Source: an uncultured Actinomycetes bacterium (GTDB lineage: Bacteria; Actinomycetota; UBA4738; HRBIN12). Taken from it: 64,000 nucleotides of DNA. The notes beneath the pieces were generated by a model that made no database searches, had not been told where the DNA came from, and worked only from the letters and a program-made list of their open reading frames with translations. The stretch's first letter is position 1. The number at the start of each line of letters is the position of its first letter. The position numbers and the translations under genes are program-made. Positions 38,798 through 43,729 of this stretch are shown piece after piece. The stretch lies in NCBI GenBank assembly GCA_963704725.1, contig OY969934.1, forward strand, positions 2,688,001 to 2,752,000. The letters run 5' to 3'.

Positions 38798-38836
38798 GGG
38801 GCCCCCTCGGGTCGAACCGGCGTCAGGGGGCAAGCG

Positions 38837-38842
38837 TACAAT
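38837..38842 (+). promoter_or_regulatory. -10 element for the RAPP-ORF/copper operon
   Basis: TACAAT in the divergent intergenic region, 22 nt before GTG 38865. Confidence 0.6.
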
Positions 38843-38864
38843 CACCGGAACCTTGGCCACGCCC

Positions 38865-39449
38865 GTGCCTGCGACGCCGCGCCTTCGAGGCCTCCCGGTG
38901 CTCGGTTTCGCCGTGGCCGGGGTCCTCCTCGGGCACACGCTCACGTATCTCCTGGCGATCCCGGACCCGCTCCACCGCGATCTCGTCCTGCGGACGACCG
39001 GACACGCGTACCTGCCCGCGGCGGGCGAGGCGGCGCTCGTGCTCCTGCTCGCCGGCGTCGCGGCGGTCGTCGTCCGGGCGTGGTCTCGTGGGCGGCGCGA
39101 GGGACGGGACTCGTTCGGGGGCCTGGCCGGGCTGCTGACGGCGGTCCAGGTCTCCGGGTTCCTGGGCCAAGAGGTCCTGGAGCGACTCGTCACGCGGTCG
39201 CCCCTCGGCGAGCTGGTGCACGATCACGTCCTTGCCATCGGTGTCCTGCTCCAGATCCCCCTGGCCCTGGCGGCCGCCGCGATGCTGCGTTGGCTGGCCC
39301 GCGCCTCCGCGGCCGTGGCGGAGACGACCGGCGGTCGCACCGCCACCCCCCGGCCGGCGCTGGTCCTGGCGGCCACCGCCCCGGCCGACGTCCCCCACGG
39401 CCGCGTCGCGGCCACGGCCCGGCGCGACCGGGCTCCTCCCTCCGCCTGA
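38865..39449 (+). CDS. His-containing 4-TM protein with C-terminal RAPP motif (candidate arrest-peptide leader)
   Basis: GHTLTY, LHRD, GHAYL, QEVLER, HDH; ends RRDRAPPSA-stop; first gene of copper-type operon. Confidence 0.75.
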   Translation: MPATPRLRGLPVLGFAVAGVLLGHTLTYLLAIPDPLHRDLVLRTTGHAYLPAAGEAALVLLLAGVAAVVVRAWSRGRREGRDSFGGLAGLLTAVQVSGFLGQEVLERLVTRSPLGELVHDHVLAIGVLLQIPLALAAAAMLRWLARASAAVAETTGGRTATPRPALVLAATAPADVPHGRVAATARRDRAPPSA

Positions 39450-39510
39450 CGCCTCCCCCAACCTGCGCGCGACGGACGTCGCGCTCGGAGACGCCTCAAG
39501 GAGGACGAGC
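39432..39510 (+). promoter_or_regulatory. Putative SD-sequestering structure
   Basis: GCTCCTCCCTCC (39432-43) complementary to GGAGGACGAGC (39500-10); inner hairpin GCGCGAC/GTCGCGC 39467-84. Confidence 0.55.
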
Positions 39511-40197
39511 ATGATCGATCGCATCACCAGACTGATGGCTGCTGCCGCGCTCACGGTGGGGTTCGTGGGCCTGCTGGCCTCACCGGCGACTGCGCACGAG
39601 GAACGCGCGGTCGGCGACTTCGACCTCACCGTGGGGTTCGGCACGGAGCCGGCATACGTGGGCGAGCCGAACAGCGCCATCCTGCTGCTGTCGCGTGGCG
39701 GTCGGCCGGTCGTAGACCTGGGCGACACCCTGAGCGTCGACGTGTCGTTCGGCGACGCGGCCCCGTTCCCCTTGTCCGTCGAGCCCTTCTTCGAGGAGGG
39801 CGAGTTCGGAACGCCCGGCGACTATCGAGCCTGGTTCATCCCGACGAGCGCCGGACAGTACACGTTCCACTTCACGGGGACGATCGACGGCCAGGACGTC
39901 GACGAGACCTTCGTCTCCGGCCCCCAGACGTTCAACGACGTCGAGACCCCGACCGACGCCGAGTACCCCGATCAGCCGCCTTCGACGAGCGAGCTGGCCG
40001 ACCGGATCGACCGCGAGGTGCCGAGGCTCAACGATGCGATCGGCGGAGTGAAGAGCTCGGCCCTGGCCGCGGCGCAGAGCGCCTCCGACGATGCATCGGG
40101 CGCGCGCACCGTCGGCGTGATCGGAGTGGCGGTGGGAGGGCTCGGCTTGATCGCCGCCGCGGCGGCCATCGGCATGTCGCGCAGGGCGAGGGCGTGA
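39511..40197 (+). CDS. Exported membrane-anchored protein with predicted mature N-terminal His (putative Cu-binding)
   Basis: Signal peptide ATA|H, beta-rich domain, C-terminal TM. Confidence 0.72.
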
Positions 40198-40222
40198 GCC
40201 TCGTGTGTTCGAAGGGCTGAGG

Positions 40223-40771
40223 ATGCTCGCACACGCGGGAGGCGCGCCCGAGTTCGCCTCGTCGATGCTCGTCGCCGGCGGCGTGGTGGCCGGCTGGGTC
40301 GGCCTCAGCCGCCTGCGGGGTCGGGGCTTCCGGCGGCTGCCGCATGCGGCCGGCGTGACCCTTCTCGCGCTCGCGCCGGTGATCGTGGTGGCGTCCGTGG
40401 TGGTGCCCTCGCTCGTGTGGCCCATCCCGTCCGCGAGCGGACCGCGCCCGGCCTCGACCGCGTCGATCTCGTTCGTCGCGCCGAAGCCGGGGCAGAGCGT
40501 TACGGGCGACCTGCTCGATGTGCGGTTGGAGCTGGACGGCGGCAGGATCGTGGAGAGCTCCTCGACGACGGTCACCCCTGACACCGGGCACGTCCATGTC
40601 TTCCTCGATGGGCAGCTCCTGACGATGACCTACGGCCTCGAGCAGGAGGTGGGCGTGGCGGGGCTGACACCCGGCGTCCACCGGTTACGGGCCGAGTACG
40701 TCGCGGCCGACCACGCACCCTTCAACCCGGACGTGGTGGCGACGGTGACGTTCGTGAAGGCCGCGACGTGA
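40223..40771 (+). CDS. 2-TM protein with His-motif extracellular domain (DUF4399-like)
   Basis: GHVHVFLDG...[17 protein letters not shown]. Confidence 0.7.
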
Positions 40772-42726
40772 GGCGGGCCGTCGTCGTCTCGGTCGTGGCG
40801 CTCGCCCTGGTGGGCGCCTGGACCGCCTCCGCGGTCCGCGCCGGTGCGCACGCCGCCCTGAAGCGGAGCGAGCCGGCCAACGGCCAGCTGCTCGACCGTT
40901 CGCCCGCGGAGATCCGGCTCTCCTTCACCGAACCGCCCGACCTCTCGCTCACGACGATCGGAGTCGTGGACCGCACCGGAACGGCGGTACGGACCGGGCC
41001 GGTGGAGGTCGCCGGCGGCGACGACCAGACGATCCGGGTTGCGCTGCAAGACCTACCGGACGGCGTCTACACCGTGTCGTGGCGGACCGTCTCGGCGACC
41101 GACGGGCACCTCACCTCGGGGTCCTTCTCGTTCGGGGTGGGCGTCTCCGCGGCCGACGTGACGCCGGTCCGGCAGGAGGATCGAGCGCGAGCGACCTCGC
41201 CCACCGCCGCCGGGGTGGCCGGGCGATGGGCACTGTACGCGGGCCTGGCGGTCCTGTTCGGCGCGGCCGCGGGGGGGCTGTTCGCGTTCGGCCCGCTGAG
41301 CGTGCACCGACCGCGGCTCCTCGGTGGGGCGTGGACGCTCGCCGCGGCCGGCGTGGTCGTCACGACGCTGGACGAGCGCGCCACGGTCGGCGTGTCGCTC
41401 GGCACGCTGCTCCGATCGGATGCGGGGGCGTCGCTCGCCCGGCTCGCGGTCGCCGTGGCCCTCGTCGGCCTCGTCGCCCTGGCGGCGAGCCTGCGACCGG
41501 GGACCGCCACCCTCGTGCTCCTCGCCGGGACCACGGCCGCCGCCATGGCCGTCCGGGCGTTCGCCGGCCATGCCGGGCCGTCCGTGCTGGAAGGCACGCT
41601 TCAGGCGGCGCACTTTGCCGCCGTGGGGGCGTGGATCGGGGGGCTCGTCTGGCTGGTGCTCGCCGTGCGGCGAGGGGCGGAGCCGGAGCGGGTGCGACGG
41701 TACTCGACGATCGCCGCGACCGGCCTCGCCGTCATCGTGGTCACGGGGTACCTGCGAGCCACCAACGAGCTCGGGGGGTTCGGTTGGTGGCTGCGTGCGT
41801 TCGACAACAGCTACGGCGTGGCGCTGGTCGTCAAGCTCGCCATCGTCGCCGCGCTCGTCTCGCTCGGCGCGGTCAACCGGTACCGGAACGTGCGCCGCTA
41901 CGAGGCGCTCGGGGCTCGTCCTCTGCTCCGCACGGTGAGCGGCGAGCTCGTCCTGGCCGCCGGAGCGCTCGCCATGACCGGCCTGTTGACAGGGCTCGCC
42001 CCCCAGGGTGTGGTGGCATCGGCGGGCCCCCGTCCCCCCGCACCGCTCGTCGTCACGGGATCGGACTTCGCCACGACCACGAAGGTGCGCCTGCAGATCT
42101 CGCCCGGAACCGTCGGCCCGAACGCATTCGAGGCGAGGGTCACCGACTACGACACGGGCGAGCCGGTGGACGCCCGAAAGGTCACGCTGCAGTTCTCGCT
42201 CCCAGAGCGCCCCGAGGTCGACTCGACGCTCGAGCTCGAGCGCGGGACGAACGGGACGTGGCGGGCCGGGGGGACGTCGCTGTCGCTCGACGGCACCTGG
42301 GACGTCCGCGTCCTCGTGGAGGGCTCGGCCGGCTCGGTCGAGGTGCCCCTTCGCGTGACGCCGAAGTCCCCGCGGCAGGACATCGACGTGTCGCGGGCCG
42401 AGGGGCAGCCCGACATCTACACGATCCATCTGGAGGACGGCGTGACCGTGCAGGCGTACGTGGACCCCGGGACGCCCGGGCAGACGAACCAGGTGCATCT
42501 GACCGCCTTCGACGCGGGCGGCGCCGAGCTGCCCCTGCACCATGCCGTCCTGGACATCACCCCGGAGGACGGTCAACTCCTCGAGCCCGAGCTGATCCGG
42601 CTCTCGTCGGGACACTTCGTGGCCAACGTCGAGATCGCGTCAGGGACCTCGACGTTCGCGATCTCCATGCTGACCAGGGACGGTCGCGATCTCGCGGCGT
42701 CGTTCCAGGAGACCTTCGCAGGATGA
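40768..42726 (+). CDS. CopC-CopD fusion copper transport protein with C-terminal YtkA/FixH-like domains
   Basis: [20 protein letters not shown] (CopC); [25 protein letters not shown] (CopD). Confidence 0.9.
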
Positions 42727-42737
42727 AAGGAGCGATC

Positions 42738-43166
42738 GTGACGCGAACCCACACCGTGGCCCTGTCGATCGTCGCGGCGGTGACCCTGGCGGCCTGCGGG
42801 GGGAACGGGTCCGGCGACGCCGCGTCGCCGAGCTCGGGAACGTCCTCCCGTCCGAGCAGCCCCGCCCGGCTCTCGATCGAGGCGCCGAAGGCCGGCCACG
42901 TCGTGCACGGCTCGACCGTCCAGCTGCGCGTCGATCTGGAGGGCGCCCGCCTCGTCCCCGCCACCACGACCGACATCGTGCCCGACGAGGGGCACCTCCA
43001 CGTCATCCTGGACGACTCCCTGATCTCGATGACCGAGGGCCTGCACCAGTCGATCCCCAACCTCTCGCCGGGGATGCACCGGTTGACGGTCGAGTTCGTG
43101 GCCAGCGACCATGCCCCGTTCGACCCGAGGGTGGTCGCCGTGACCGAGTTCGAGGTGCAGCCGTGA
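42738..43166 (+). CDS. Lipoprotein with His-motif domain (paralog of 40223-40771)
   Basis: Lipobox LAAC; GHLHVILDD...GMHRLTVEFVASDHAPF; SD AAAGGAG. Confidence 0.75.
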   Translation: MTRTHTVALSIVAAVTLAACGGNGSGDAASPSSGTSSRPSSPARLSIEAPKAGHVVHGSTVQLRVDLEGARLVPATTTDIVPDEGHLHVILDDSLISMTEGLHQSIPNLSPGMHRLTVEFVASDHAPFDPRVVAVTEFEVQP

Positions 43167-43729
43167 GCGCCCGCGTCGGCGGCACCTCGCCGAACCCCGC
43201 CGTCGCGGCCCCGGCCGTCGTGCTGGCCGGGGCGGCGATCCTGCTCGCCCGGCCGTTCGTCGACGCGGCGCCCGGAGGCCGAACGGCGTTGTTCGCCACG
43301 GCGTACCTGGTGATCGGCGTGGCCGCCGTGTCCCTCCCCGGCCGGACGGCGATCGCCCCGGTCCTTCCGTGGGCGCCGGCCCTCGCGCTCGGCGTCCTCG
43401 CGGTGGCCGTCGTCGGCACGCTCGGCCCCCCCGTCCCGGTTCCGTGGGGACCGGCCGCCCTGCCCCTCGCGGGCCTGGCCGGGGTGGCGGAGGAGGCGCT
43501 GTTCCGGCGCGCGGCGTACGGATGGCTCGAGCGCTTCGGCGCCCCGGTCGCCGTGGTCGGATCGGCGGCCCTGTTCGCCGCCGTCCACATCCCCGCCTAT
43601 GGCCTGACCGTCCTTCCGGTCGACCTCGGGGCGGGGCTGCTGCTCTCGTGGCAGCGGTGGGCGTCGGGGAGCTGGACGGCTCCCGCGGCCACCCACGTCG
43701 TGGCGAACGCCCTGGCGGTGCTTCGATGA
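43163..43729 (+). CDS. CPBP/CAAX (Abi) intramembrane metalloprotease
   Basis: EEALFR, FAAVH, HVVAN. Confidence 0.85.
   Translation: MSARVGGTSPNPAVAAPAVVLAGAAILLARPFVDAAPGGRTALFATAYLVIGVAAVSLPGRTAIAPVLPWAPALALGVLAVAVVGTLGPPVPVPWGPAALPLAGLAGVAEEALFRRAAYGWLERFGAPVAVVGSAALFAAVHIPAYGLTVLPVDLGAGLLLSWQRWASGSWTAPAATHVVANALAVLR

What the first reader, a model, noticed from the sequence alone, without database searches (positions are those of the whole stretch)
38865..39513. Membrane-embedded, His-containing RAPP leader: candidate ribosome-stalling copper switch
Seen: the first gene of the copper-type operon is a 194-aa 4-TM protein with His/Glu near the membrane (GHTLTY, LHRD, GHAYL, QEVLER, HDH). 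About 45 residues after the last TM it ends in RAPP-SA-stop. The APPS codons (GCTCCTCCCTCC, 39432-43) are complementary to the next gene's SD region (GGAGGACGAGC, 39500-10) and enclose a 7-bp hairpin (39467-84). I see no copper-responsive regulator gene at the locus. Known: RAPP is the arrest motif of ApdA/ApdP and of the copper-responsive leader CruR (DUF2946, a CxxC protein; CutF is related). Inference: this is a Cys-free, polytopic membrane counterpart. Stalling would expose the SD, and copper binding or membrane insertion would release the stall. I do not know of a characterised example with this architecture.
Basis: partly seen in the sequence, partly recalled or inferred. Interest (0 to 1): 0.85.

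Follow-up and report, generated by a model that had tools for sequence, protein, structure and literature searches.

The report
Ribosome-stalling membrane leader of copper operon
The first gene of this copper operon encodes a four-helix membrane protein ending in a conserved ribosome-stalling motif, probably a built-in sensor that switches on the next gene, but a 2025 paper already described this kind of switch.

Summary
ORF 38865-39449 (+) encodes a Cys-free 194-aa protein with four predicted TM helices that ends RAPP-SA-stop. It belongs to a large family with no Pfam or NCBIfam model (2764 cluster representatives). R(A/G/S)PP lies 1-10 residues from the C-terminus in 138 of 146 representatives. 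H24, H47, E103 and E106 are invariant. The sensor-to-motif spacing is fixed although the linker sequence varies. Members head copper operons: an unannotated N-terminal-His Ig-like protein here, and YcnI, CopC/CopCD or PepSY_TM elsewhere.

The next gene's SD is predicted to pair with a pyrimidine tract at or just after the stall codons. Rare codons (GCT, CCT) build that tract, and native codons sequester the SD more than synonymous ones in 31 of 34 loci. Several single-locus controls are not significant.

The kind is published. Fujiwara et al. 2025 reported TM RAPP/RGPP uORFs upstream of YcnI and copper genes and showed arrest for a 4-TM Streptomyces lividans example. This family shows no detectable homology to the Streptomyces-type leader I recovered, nor to CruR/CutF. 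Arrest, copper sensing and the sign of the response are untested here. I rate it a new member of a known kind, of moderate interest.

The parts
38865..39449 (+). Leader/sensor ORF, 194 aa, GTG start, TGA stop. No Pfam or NCBIfam family.
   Evidence: The start is supported by homologues that begin at the aligned column. The collection's own copy of this protein has 183 aa and covers 94% of the query, so a later start was called there.
38877..38957 (+). TM helix 1 (residues 5-31), carrying invariant H24 and near-invariant Y28.
   Evidence: AlphaFold2 model: pLDDT 88.4, pTM 0.77. Conservation.
39012..39086 (+). TM helix 2 (residues 50-74). Invariant G46-H47 and near-invariant Y49 lie just before it, in the outer loop.
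39114..39191 (+). TM helix 3 (residues 84-109), with invariant E103 and E106 (QEVLER) at its outer end.
39228..39332 (+). TM helix 4 (residues 122-156), with invariant G126 and near-invariant Q130 near its outer end.
39333..39428 (+). Cytoplasmic linker (residues 157-188). Its sequence varies but its length is fixed, so it acts as a 'ruler'.
   Evidence: pLDDT about 60-70, no secondary structure. The E103-to-R189 distance is 84-88 residues in 188 of 209 proteins. The distance from the TM4 end to the second Pro has a median of 45.
39429..39440 (+). RAPP codons CGG GCT CCT CCC, the presumed arrest site (first Pro in the P site, second Pro in the A site, by analogy with CruR).
   Evidence: The P/A-site assignment is taken from PMC12992588 section 14 and is not tested here.
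39432..39443 (+). In-ORF pyrimidine tract GCTCCTCCCTCC, the anti-SD, built from rare codons GCT (2.9% of Ala) and CCT (3.6% of Pro) plus TCC.
39450..39459 (+). Post-stop C-rich tract CGCCTCCCCC. It pairs with GGAG 39487-90 in the MFE fold and is a possible second anti-SD or part of a rut-like C>G region.
39467..39484 (+). GC-rich 7-bp hairpin with a 4-nt loop, enclosed by the long-range stem. No U-tract follows it.
39500..39513 (+). SD GGAGG (39500-04) and ATG (39511-13) of the next gene.
39511..40197 (+). Regulated gene 1, 228 aa. Signal peptide ending AxA|H, an Ig-like beta-sandwich and a C-terminal TM anchor. No Pfam family, and not DUF1775.
40205..40771 (+). Membrane protein with weak, sub-threshold DUF6130 and DUF4399 matches.
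40768..42726 (+). CopC-CopD-YtkA/FixH fusion, 652 aa.
42702..43166 (+). DUF6130-type putative lipoprotein (25.1 bits, cut-off 23.7; DUF4399 just under its cut-off). The start is approximate.
43163..43729 (+). CPBP (Rce1-like) intramembrane protease, the last gene of the run.

Best explanation
The ORF encodes a cis-acting, RAPP-type translation-arrest sensor.

Proposed sequence of events:
1. Translation produces a 4-TM bundle, N-in/C-in. Its invariant His, His, Glu and Glu all lie within about two helical turns of the outer membrane face.
2. A 45-residue linker of fixed length follows, and then the ribosome reaches R-A-P-P and stalls.
3. At that moment TM4 has just left the exit tunnel.
4. The stalled ribosome covers the pyrimidine tract (CCUCC) that is encoded by the stall codons and the two tail codons. 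That tract otherwise pairs with the SD of the next gene.
5. The SD is therefore free only while the ribosome is stalled, and the copper operon is translated.
6. Arrest ends when TM4 inserts and packs against TM1-3, which pulls on the nascent chain.

I infer that copper bound at the outer His/Glu site promotes step 6. Copper sufficiency would then shut off what looks like an uptake operon (a YcnJ-like CopC-CopD), which is the CruR logic.

Shown here by computation: the motif, its conservation, the spacing, the genomic context, the codon bias and the SD-pairing potential.
Known from print: RAPP/RGPP arrest on actinobacterial ribosomes.
Inferred: arrest in this protein (about 0.8), SD unmasking (about 0.55), copper as the ligand (about 0.5), and copper relieving rather than inducing the stall (about 0.6 given copper sensing).
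For: Motif conservation:
- R[AGS]PP lies 1-8 residues before the stop in 37 of 39 loci from relatives.
- It is present in 35 of 35 phylum-wide loci and in 138 of 146 cluster representatives.

Spacing and sensor residues:
- E103-to-R spacing is 84-88 residues in 188 of 209 proteins.
- Invariant H24, H47, E103 and E106 all sit near the outer ends of confidently modelled helices.

Context. The downstream gene is always copper-type:
- an N-terminal-His Ig-like protein in 34 of 37 motif-bearing relatives' loci and in 23 of 34 phylum loci with room;
- DUF1775 directly downstream in several families;
- CopC-CopD, CopC or PepSY_TM in others.

RNA:
- The SD is predicted to be at least 75% paired in 28 of 34 loci, against 44% of 250 control genes.
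- Its partner lies at the Pro-Pro-Ser codons or just after the stop.
- The SD opening energy is 7.2 kcal/mol native against 4.7 for synonymous resamples. Native exceeds the resample median in 31 of 34 loci. In the window it is 9.0 against 4.3, with 1 of 25 resamples reaching the native value.
- A modelled stalled ribosome lowers the opening energy to a median of 3.9 (window 9.0 to 4.6).
- The first Pro codon is CCT in 32 of 70 loci, against 3.6% genome-wide and 1 of 10 in unrelated RGPP leaders.
- The Ser codon after PP is TCC or TCT in 21 of 24 loci.

Literature:
- All 7 C-terminal RAPP/RGPP proteins of S. lividans arrested in vitro and in vivo (PMC12992588, section 14).
- CruR and CutF link stalling to copper (PMC9426467 abstract and discussion; 10.1101/2025.02.05.636593 abstract).
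Against: - No experiment bears on this protein, and no RNA data were found.
[quoted passage not shown] That context is unconserved here apart from V/I/L before the Arg.
- Single-locus RNA signals are weak: fold z -0.62 and hairpin z -1.24. Of other SDs in this 71% GC genome, 6.4% are as buried.
- The SD region pairs as well with 12 of 38 other windows of the ORF. The stall window ranks in the top 5% in only 3 of 34 loci.
- In the window a second CCUCC just outside the stalled ribosome's footprint could keep the SD partly paired. The unpaired probability is only 0.04 with the stall modelled.
- The related loci are not independent, and G000 codon usage was applied to all of them.
- The copper ligand set is inferred from topology only. 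I had no model coordinates.
- The sign of the response is a guess from the operon's content.
Confidence: 0.6

Rival explanations
1. Stalling controls transcription rather than SD access, as in CruR. The C-rich, G-poor tract at and after the stall site is a Rho loading site. A stalled ribosome masks it. After release, Rho terminates transcription before the next gene.
For: The segment from the Arg codon to stop+20 is about 50% C and 24% G. It is the most C>G-skewed part of the leader mRNA in 21 of 34 loci, the window included. CruR works this way (PMC9426467, abstract and discussion). No intrinsic terminator is present.
Against: The tract is only about 40 nt long and is followed at once by a stable hairpin. 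The codon bias specifically creates CCUCC, which is complementary to the SD. Synonymous recoding changes the predicted SD access. The two mechanisms could coexist.
Confidence: 0.15
2. Same device with the opposite sign, as in CutF. Copper binding to the nascent sensor induces or prolongs the stall and switches the operon on, so the operon handles excess copper.
For: [quoted passage not shown] CopC and CopD carry 'copper resistance' names in Pfam.
Against: The operon content (CopC-CopD fusion, N-terminal-His carriers, PepSY_TM in relatives) resembles uptake systems such as B. subtilis ycnJ/ycnI (recalled, not checked here). No efflux pump or multicopper oxidase is present. The evidence either way is weak.
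Confidence: 0.15
3. The leader monitors membrane insertion capacity (YidC/Sec), not copper, like MifM, ApdA or CliM. Its position before copper genes is incidental.
For: About 45 residues separate TM4 from the arrest site. I recall that range as one where TM insertion pulls on the nascent chain, but I did not check it. All characterised RAPP monitors before CruR sensed localisation (PMC7897499 and PMC10987492, abstracts in the search listing).
Against: The family never preceded a sec or yidC gene in the 70 loci I examined. The downstream genes were copper-type. Invariant outer-face His and Glu residues are not expected for a pure insertion monitor.
Confidence: 0.06
4. It is an ordinary structural or accessory membrane subunit of the copper system. 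The terminal RAPP is a protein-level feature and has no regulatory role.
For: The 4-helix bundle is confidently folded and conserved (pLDDT 88), unlike the disordered CruR. The single-locus RNA statistics are weak.
Against: RAPP and RGPP are among the most avoided tetrapeptides in bacterial proteomes, and they stalled in every S. lividans case tested (PMC12992588, abstract and section 14). The motif sits 1-10 residues from the stop at a fixed distance from TM4. Rare codons at the motif match the SD.
Confidence: 0.04

Closest known systems
TM RAPP/RGPP uORFs upstream of YcnI-family and other copper genes in Actinomycetota, e.g. S. lividans SLIV_18480 (Fujiwara et al., EMBO J 2025, PMC12992588)
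   Same: Four predicted TM segments, a C-terminal RAPP/RGPP a few residues before the stop, a co-directional copper-related gene downstream, conserved His residues proposed as a copper site, and an actinobacterial host. Other members of the window's family sit directly upstream of true DUF1775 genes, so they probably entered that paper's statistics.
   Different: No detectable homology. Profile-profile comparison with 8 Streptomyces-type leaders aligns only the RGPP (probability about 1%). That these 8 represent SLIV_18480 is my inference from genome size and context. The window family is shorter (about 194 aa against about 280 aa). It has no conserved Cys and no Met/His-rich loop, and uses 2 His plus 2 Glu. 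Its IGR is short (about 60 nt) with an anti-SD in the stall codons, and its CCT codon bias is absent from the Streptomyces type. The paper excluded uORFs whose downstream gene is annotated 'unknown' (section 24), which would probably exclude this locus.
CruR (Bordetella pertussis; DUF2946)
   Same: A C-terminal RAPP, its position as first gene of a copper-acquisition operon, a fixed spacing between the sensing motif and RAPP, and stall = downstream genes ON.
   Different: CruR has a signal peptide, a CxxC motif and a poorly structured body, and acts through Rho termination across a 162-nt IGR. The window protein has no DUF2946 match, no Cys, and a folded 4-TM bundle.
CutF (Rhodobacter capsulatus; DUF2946)
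   Same: A nascent exported or transmembrane copper sensor. A C-terminal proline-rich stall melts a stem-loop that shields the next gene's RBS (preprint abstract).
   Different: CutF uses a Cys motif and a PPP-type stall, depends on EF-P, is switched on by copper, and controls a detoxifying oxidase. It is not homologous to the window protein.
ApdA/ApdP, SecM and MifM (Sec/YidC monitoring substrates)
   Same: The RAPP or RAGP core at the peptidyl-transferase centre, an N-terminal localisation signal, force-sensitive release, and SD unmasking by the stalled ribosome (SecM and MifM; recalled).
   Different: Those precede sec or yidC genes and carry a single signal sequence or TM segment and no ligand site. 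This one is polytopic and precedes copper genes.

Membership tests
RAPP/RGPP-type translation arrest peptides | R-(A/G)-P-P core | tested here: met
   RAPP at residues 189-192. R, P and P are invariant in the 150-row alignment. Among 146 representatives: RGPP 84, RAPP 47, RSPP 7.
RAPP/RGPP-type translation arrest peptides | Motif within a few residues of the C-terminus of a small (<300 aa) ORF | tested here: met
   Two residues before the stop in the window. Tails are 1-10 residues in the 138 motif-bearing representatives.
RAPP/RGPP-type translation arrest peptides | N-terminal signal sequence or TM segment | tested here: met
   Four helices in the AlphaFold2 model. A hydropathy scan (mean >1.6 over 19 residues) flags helices 1, 2 and 4 but not helix 3. 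DeepTMHMM was not available.
RAPP/RGPP-type translation arrest peptides | Co-directional downstream gene after an intergenic spacer | tested here: met
   61-nt IGR in the window; 24-94 nt in the 34 loci.
RAPP/RGPP-type translation arrest peptides | Ribosome arrest (peptidyl-tRNA, toeprint) that is abolished by Arg-to-Ala | not testable with these tools
   Needs in vitro translation. Shown for other proteins in PMC12992588, section 14.
CruR/CutF (DUF2946) | Pfam DUF2946 match | tested here: not met
   No Pfam or NCBIfam family at E<=0.01.
CruR/CutF (DUF2946) | Conserved CxxC-type Cys motif | tested here: not met
   No Cys in the window protein. 65 of 146 representatives have none.
CruR/CutF (DUF2946) | Heads a copper-homeostasis operon | tested here: met
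   CopC-CopD fusion in the operon. Relatives are followed by DUF1775, CopC(D) or PepSY_TM.
Streptomyces-type 4-TM RGPP leader upstream of YcnI (presumed SLIV_18480 family) | Sequence homology of the TM domain | tested here: not met
   hhalign of A3 against A4: probability about 1%, with only 19 columns around RGPP aligned. The A3 profile hit 0 of 9 genomes of the 7-10 Mb genus in which 9 of 9 have DUF1775.
Streptomyces-type 4-TM RGPP leader upstream of YcnI (presumed SLIV_18480 family) | Downstream gene is YcnI (DUF1775) | tested here: not met
   In the window there is no DUF1775 match. hhalign of A2 against a DUF1775 alignment gives probability 0.6%. DUF1775 was found in 0 of 17 genomes of the window's family. 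The feature is met in other members of the leader family.
SecM/MifM-type SD unmasking | The downstream SD pairs with sequence that the arrested ribosome covers | tested here: inconclusive
   For. Against or neutral: and a second anti-SD just outside the footprint.

The most novel reading that the evidence does not exclude
This is a Pfam-less family of over 2,700 clusters of polytopic membrane sensors. In it the ribosome would read out the protein's own ligand-dependent folding. Copper bound at an outer-face 2His/2Glu site would let TM4 dock. The resulting pull would travel down a 45-residue ruler of fixed length and release a RAPP arrest. The arrest codons themselves form the anti-SD of the next gene. 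If so, this would be an independently evolved, compact 'fold-to-release' riboregulator that controls copper uptake across several actinobacterial lineages. It would also be a tractable model for ligand-gated force on a nascent membrane protein.
Probability: 0.3. Interest if true: 0.7.

Novelty: new member of a known kind. Interest (0 to 1): 0.45.

Why it matters
Copper regulation by nascent-chain stalling is recent (CruR 2022, CutF 2023-25). For the transmembrane actinobacterial class, only arrest in vitro has been shown. How arrest controls the next gene, and what releases it, are stated as open questions in the 2025 paper.

This family offers a clean test case:
- a confidently folded small sensor with four invariant candidate ligand residues;
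- a strict spacer length;
- a short intergenic region whose proposed anti-SD can be removed by synonymous recoding without touching the peptide.

It also flags two unannotated families that would merit Pfam models: the leader, and the N-terminal-His Ig-like protein that takes the place of YcnI in this order.

Tried and rejected
- The search for related loci on genome contigs gave no answer twice. I therefore have no organism names.
A parallel call errored.
- I could not obtain the SLIV_18480 sequence. I compared instead with leaders recovered upstream of DUF1775 in a genus with 7-10 Mb genomes. Equating those with SLIV_18480 is an inference.
- Supplements and source data of PMC12992588 were not visible. 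They may list members of this family.
- Foldseek of the leader model against the PDB found nothing (best E 0.9).
- The ESM Atlas returned only unnamed actinobacterial clusters.
- Rfam gave one sub-threshold minus-strand hit, taken as chance.
- The promoter and terminator scan found nothing.
- Sequencing runs: no RNA holder was listed, and one DNA run held a small share of the words.
- The first synonymous-resampling script timed out. I re-ran it with an opening-energy measure and 25 resamples.
- The MAFFT alignment of 19 intergenic regions (A5) was too poor for a covariation test, so no covariance model was built. RNAalifold on two clades gave only modest covariation: terms +0.16 and +1, with many invariant pairs.
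- Downstream protein as YcnI: rejected. Its best fold matches are DUF4426, H. pylori CrdA and filamin repeats at E 1e-4 to 1e-3.
- A crude genome scan for other small ORFs with a C-terminal RAPP or RGPP found no other convincing candidate.
Full report
**1. Observation**

The window is about 71% GC. ORF 38865 (GTG) to 39449 (TGA) on the + strand encodes 194 aa ending RDRAPPSA*.
- RAPP is CGG GCT CCT CCC at 39429-39440.
- The next gene starts at ATG 39511, preceded by GGAGG at 39500-04.
- A 7-bp GC hairpin lies at 39467-73/39478-84.
It pairs 39432-35 with 39507-10, 39437-39 with 39503-05 and 39441-43 with 39500-02. It also pairs the stop codon and the post-stop CUCC with 39487-98, and it encloses the hairpin.
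- All the sequence statements in the finding are correct.

**2. The locus**

Upstream, on the other strand, lies a 3-hydroxyacyl-CoA dehydrogenase gene. Downstream on the + strand the genes run in this order:
- a 228-aa protein with no Pfam or NCBIfam family;
- a membrane protein with weak DUF6130 and DUF4399 matches;
- a 652-aa CopC-CopD-YtkA/FixH fusion (CopC 1.3e-22, CopD 6.3e-13);
- a DUF6130-type putative lipoprotein (25.1 bits, cut-off 23.7), with DUF4399 just under its cut-off;
- a CPBP protease.

The ORFs I scanned between 34968 and 46891 are glycosyltransferases, a cupin, a periplasmic binding protein, an M23 peptidase and two proteins without a family. None belongs to a copper-regulator family.

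**3. The leader is a large, unannotated family defined by the terminal motif**

- It has no Pfam or NCBIfam match.
- A word-index search found 78 homologues, mostly 183-199 aa.
- In their alignment H24, Y28, G46, H47, Y49, E103, E106 and G126 are invariant. R189, P191 and P192 are at least 90% conserved. The 40 residues before the motif vary.
- A full HMMER scan with that profile found 2764 cluster representatives at E<=1e-3 and 1530 at E<=1e-10.
- Of the 146 listed proteins that were new, 138 carry R[AGS]PP 1-10 residues from the C-terminus: RGPP 84, RAPP 47, RSPP 7. At least six of the 8 exceptions matched only part of the profile.
- In a 150-row alignment H24, G46, H47, E103, E106, G126, R189, P191 and P192 are invariant. 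I had dropped motif-less and truncated rows before building it, so the motif columns there are invariant by selection.
- The His of LHRD and of HDH are not conserved.
- 65 of 146 representatives have no Cys.

**4. Distribution**

- The profile matches 32 of 41 related genomes.
- It matches 128 of 181 genomes of the order.
- It matches 66 of 301 genomes sampled across the phylum.
- These tallies include genomes that the tool flags as unpublished.

**5. Context is conserved**

Relatives (39 loci):
- 37 have R[AGS]PP with a 1-8 residue tail.
- The two exceptions are L010, whose C-terminus is out of register after profile position 168, and L026. In L026 the ORF lacks the tail and runs straight into the homologue of the window's third gene.
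- Of the 37, 34 are followed after 24-94 nt by the same 220-260-aa protein. L009 ends at the contig edge. L031 and L032 carry RSPP and are followed by a different membrane protein with no family.

Phylum sample (35 loci):
- All 35 have R[AG]PP with a 2-7 residue tail.
- 23 of the 34 with room downstream have the same Ig-like protein, judged by motif.
- In others the next gene is CopC-CopD (L050, L057, L059), CopC (L084), PepSY_TM (L062) or DUF1775/YcnI (L081) by Pfam.
- For L089, L090 and other loci the coordinates place the leader directly upstream of DUF1775.
- L012, L013, L067, L081, L088 and L095 come from unpublished genomes. The conclusions do not depend on them.

**6. The downstream protein is not YcnI**

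- Its alignment has invariant A-x-A-H at the signal-peptide end, a GFGxEPAY motif and a C-terminal TM anchor.
- The model is an Ig-like sandwich, with pLDDT above 90 for most of residues 30-150.
- The best PDB matches are DUF4426 PA0388 (9e-5), H. pylori CrdA (3.5e-4) and filamin repeats.
- No member of the alignment matches DUF1775.
- A profile-profile comparison with a 21-sequence DUF1775 alignment is negative (probability 0.6%).
- DUF1775 was found in 0 of 17 genomes of the window's family.
- The protein occupies YcnI's position and shares its layout (exported, N-terminal His, membrane anchor). I treat it as an analogue of YcnI, not a member.

**7. Structure and topology of the leader**

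- AlphaFold2 with 150 rows gives pLDDT 88.4 and pTM 0.77.
- Helices span 5-31, 50-74, 84-109 and 122-156, with short helices at 35-44 and 115-119. The tail 157-194 is unstructured.
- There is no PDB fold match.
- Arg clusters at the N-terminus, in loop 75-83 and after TM4 argue for an N-in/C-in topology. This is the positive-inside rule, applied as an inference.
- On that topology, H24 and Y28 (TM1), H47 and Y49 (before TM2), E103 and E106 (end of TM3) and G126 and Q130 (start of TM4) all lie within about two turns of the outer face. I had no coordinates, so convergence on a single site is an inference.

**8. The ruler**

- The E103-to-Arg distance is 84-88 residues in 188 of 209 proteins (median 86).
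- The distance from the last hydrophobic window to the second Pro has a median of 45.
- At arrest the C-terminal end of helix 4 (residue 156) would lie about 35 residues from the P site, that is, at the tunnel exit. The hydrophobic core of TM4 would be at the insertion stage.
- The CruR authors likewise reported that spacing matters and suggested folding-generated force (PMC9426467, discussion).

**9. RNA evidence for SD sequestration**

For:
- The mean unpaired probability of the SD is at most 0.25 in 28 of 34 loci and at most 0.05 in 17 of 34. Among 250 crudely called GGAGG genes of this genome the figures are 44% and 13.6%.
- The SD's partner is the Pro-Pro-Ser codons (+6 to +17 from the Arg codon) or a CCUCC-like tract right after the stop (+22 to +31).
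- In one clade RNAalifold pairs the SD with CCUCC formed by the two tail codons. In another it pairs the SD with the Ser codon, plus a post-stop/pre-SD helix that shows some double changes.
- Synonymous resampling of the last codons lowers the SD opening energy from a median of 7.2 to 4.7 kcal/mol. Native exceeds the resample median in 31 of 34 loci. In the window it is 9.0 against 4.3, with 1 of 25 resamples reaching the native value.
- The codons are unusual. GCT is 2.9% of Ala codons and CCT 3.6% of Pro codons in this genome. Yet the first Pro codon is CCT in 32 of 70 loci of the family. It is CCT in only 1 of 10 unrelated RGPP leaders, where CCG is used in 8 of 10.
- The Ser codon after PP is TCC in 16 and TCT in 5 of 24 loci. 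50 of 70 loci have CCTCC or CTTCC in the stall window.
- Blocking the footprint of a ribosome with the first Pro in the P site lowers the opening energy to a median of 3.9 (window 9.0 to 4.6), with a drop of at least 3 kcal/mol in 18 of 34 loci.

Against or neutral:
- The window's fold is no more stable than shuffles (z -0.62).
- Intergenic hairpins have a median z of -1.38 (window -1.24). 22 of 34 lie below -1 and 8 of 34 below -2.
- 6.4% of control SDs are as buried as the window's.
- The SD region pairs as well with 12 of 38 other windows of the window's ORF. The stall window is in the top 5% in only 3 of 34 loci, although it beats the ORF-body median in most loci.
- In the window the post-stop CCUCC lies just outside the modelled footprint and keeps the SD paired in the simple model (unpaired probability 0.04).
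- The loci are related, so the counts overstate independence.
- The stall and post-stop segment is also the most C-rich, G-poor stretch of the leader mRNA in 21 of 34 loci. That equally fits a Rho loading site.
- No Rfam family, terminator or sigma-70 promoter consensus was found.

**10. Literature**

- Searches.
- Fujiwara et al. 2025 (PMC12992588; abstract and sections 13, 14, 15 and 24 read).
  - RAPP and RGPP are strongly avoided in bacterial proteomes.
  - They are enriched near the C-termini of small secretory and membrane proteins upstream of TonB, YcnI, PCuAC, PepSY and other genes.
  - All seven C-terminal RAPP/RGPP proteins of S. lividans arrested in B. subtilis and S. lividans hybrid PURE systems and in a B. 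subtilis reporter, in an Arg-dependent way.
  - SLIV_18480 has four TM segments, a predicted 3-His plus 1-Met copper site, and Cys40 and Cys127.
  - The authors hypothesise metal sensing. They list regulation of the downstream gene and the source of the pulling force as open questions.
  - They excluded uORFs whose downstream gene is annotated 'unknown'.
- CruR (PMC9426467; abstract and discussion read): copper relieves the arrest and Rho then terminates.
- CutF (10.1101/2025.02.05.636593; abstract only): copper induces stalling, which melts a stem-loop over the cutO RBS.

**11. Relation to the Streptomyces type**

- In a genus with 7-10 Mb genomes, DUF1775 is present in 9 of 9 genomes and my leader profile in 0 of 9.
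- Upstream of DUF1775 there I found, in 8 of the 10 loci fetched from that genus, a different leader of about 260-300 aa. It ends RRGPP plus 7-11 residues and has conserved Cys, several His and a Met/His-rich loop. This fits the paper's description of SLIV_18480, but the identification is my inference.
- hhalign against the window's family aligns only the RGPP region (probability about 1%).
- The window's family therefore shows no detectable homology to that type. It also shows none to DUF2946, and its layout is the same as both.

**12. Verdict**

The most likely function is a cis-acting arrest sensor for a copper, probably uptake, operon, acting at least partly by SD unmasking. The concept and the architecture are already in print. 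What is added here:
- a distinct, very large family with a defined candidate ligand set;
- a strict spacer length;
- comparative evidence that the arrest codons double as the anti-SD;
- recognition of an unannotated protein family that stands in for YcnI.

Arrest, the ligand and the sign of the response remain untested.

Noticed in passing
window 39511-40197; loci L001-L068: The protein downstream of the leader belongs to a conserved family with no Pfam model. It has a signal peptide ending in invariant AxA|H, a GFGxEPAY motif, an Ig-like sandwich and a C-terminal TM anchor. It takes the place of YcnI (DUF1775), which was not found in any of 17 genomes of the window's family. Profile-profile comparison shows no homology to DUF1775.
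   Followed up: yes
L070-L078 (upstream of DUF1775 in a genus with 7-10 Mb genomes): A second 4-TM leader family with no detectable homology to the window's. It is about 260-300 aa, ends RRGPP plus 7-11 residues, and has conserved Cys and a Met/His-rich outer loop. Its IGR to YcnI is long (estimated at about 146 nt for L070). The first Pro codon is CCG, not CCT. It is probably the SLIV_18480 type.
   Followed up: partly
L026 (G097:C20): A natural variant in which the leader ORF lacks the linker end and the RAPP. It runs directly into the homologue of the window's third gene, so the Ig-like gene appears to be deleted. This could be a natural 'constitutive' or dead allele.
   Followed up: no
L031, L032: Family members ending RSPP-SV-stop. 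They are followed by a roughly 290-aa polytopic membrane protein with no Pfam family, not by the usual copper gene.
   Followed up: partly
L010 (G005:C2): The leader homologue loses register after profile position 168 and ends without RAPP. This may be a frameshift or an assembly error. The Ig-like gene still follows after 28 nt.
   Followed up: no
window 38798-38864: Only 67 nt separate the leader's GTG from the divergent dehydrogenase gene. There is no clear SD before 38865 and no sigma-70 consensus, so the leader mRNA might be leaderless.
   Followed up: no
window 39487-39493 and the equivalent sites in relatives: A conserved GGAGACG / GGACACGTC element lies just upstream of the SD. It pairs with the stop codon and the post-stop tract (often the self-complementary GACGTC). 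It forms a second helix of the long-range stem.
   Followed up: partly
G000 whole genome: A crude scan of all stop-to-stop ORFs found no other convincing small ORF with RAPP or RGPP near its C-terminus. In particular there was no obvious ApdA-like ORF. Two large enzyme-like ORFs (503 and 528 aa) carry RAPP 10 residues from their ends.
   Followed up: partly
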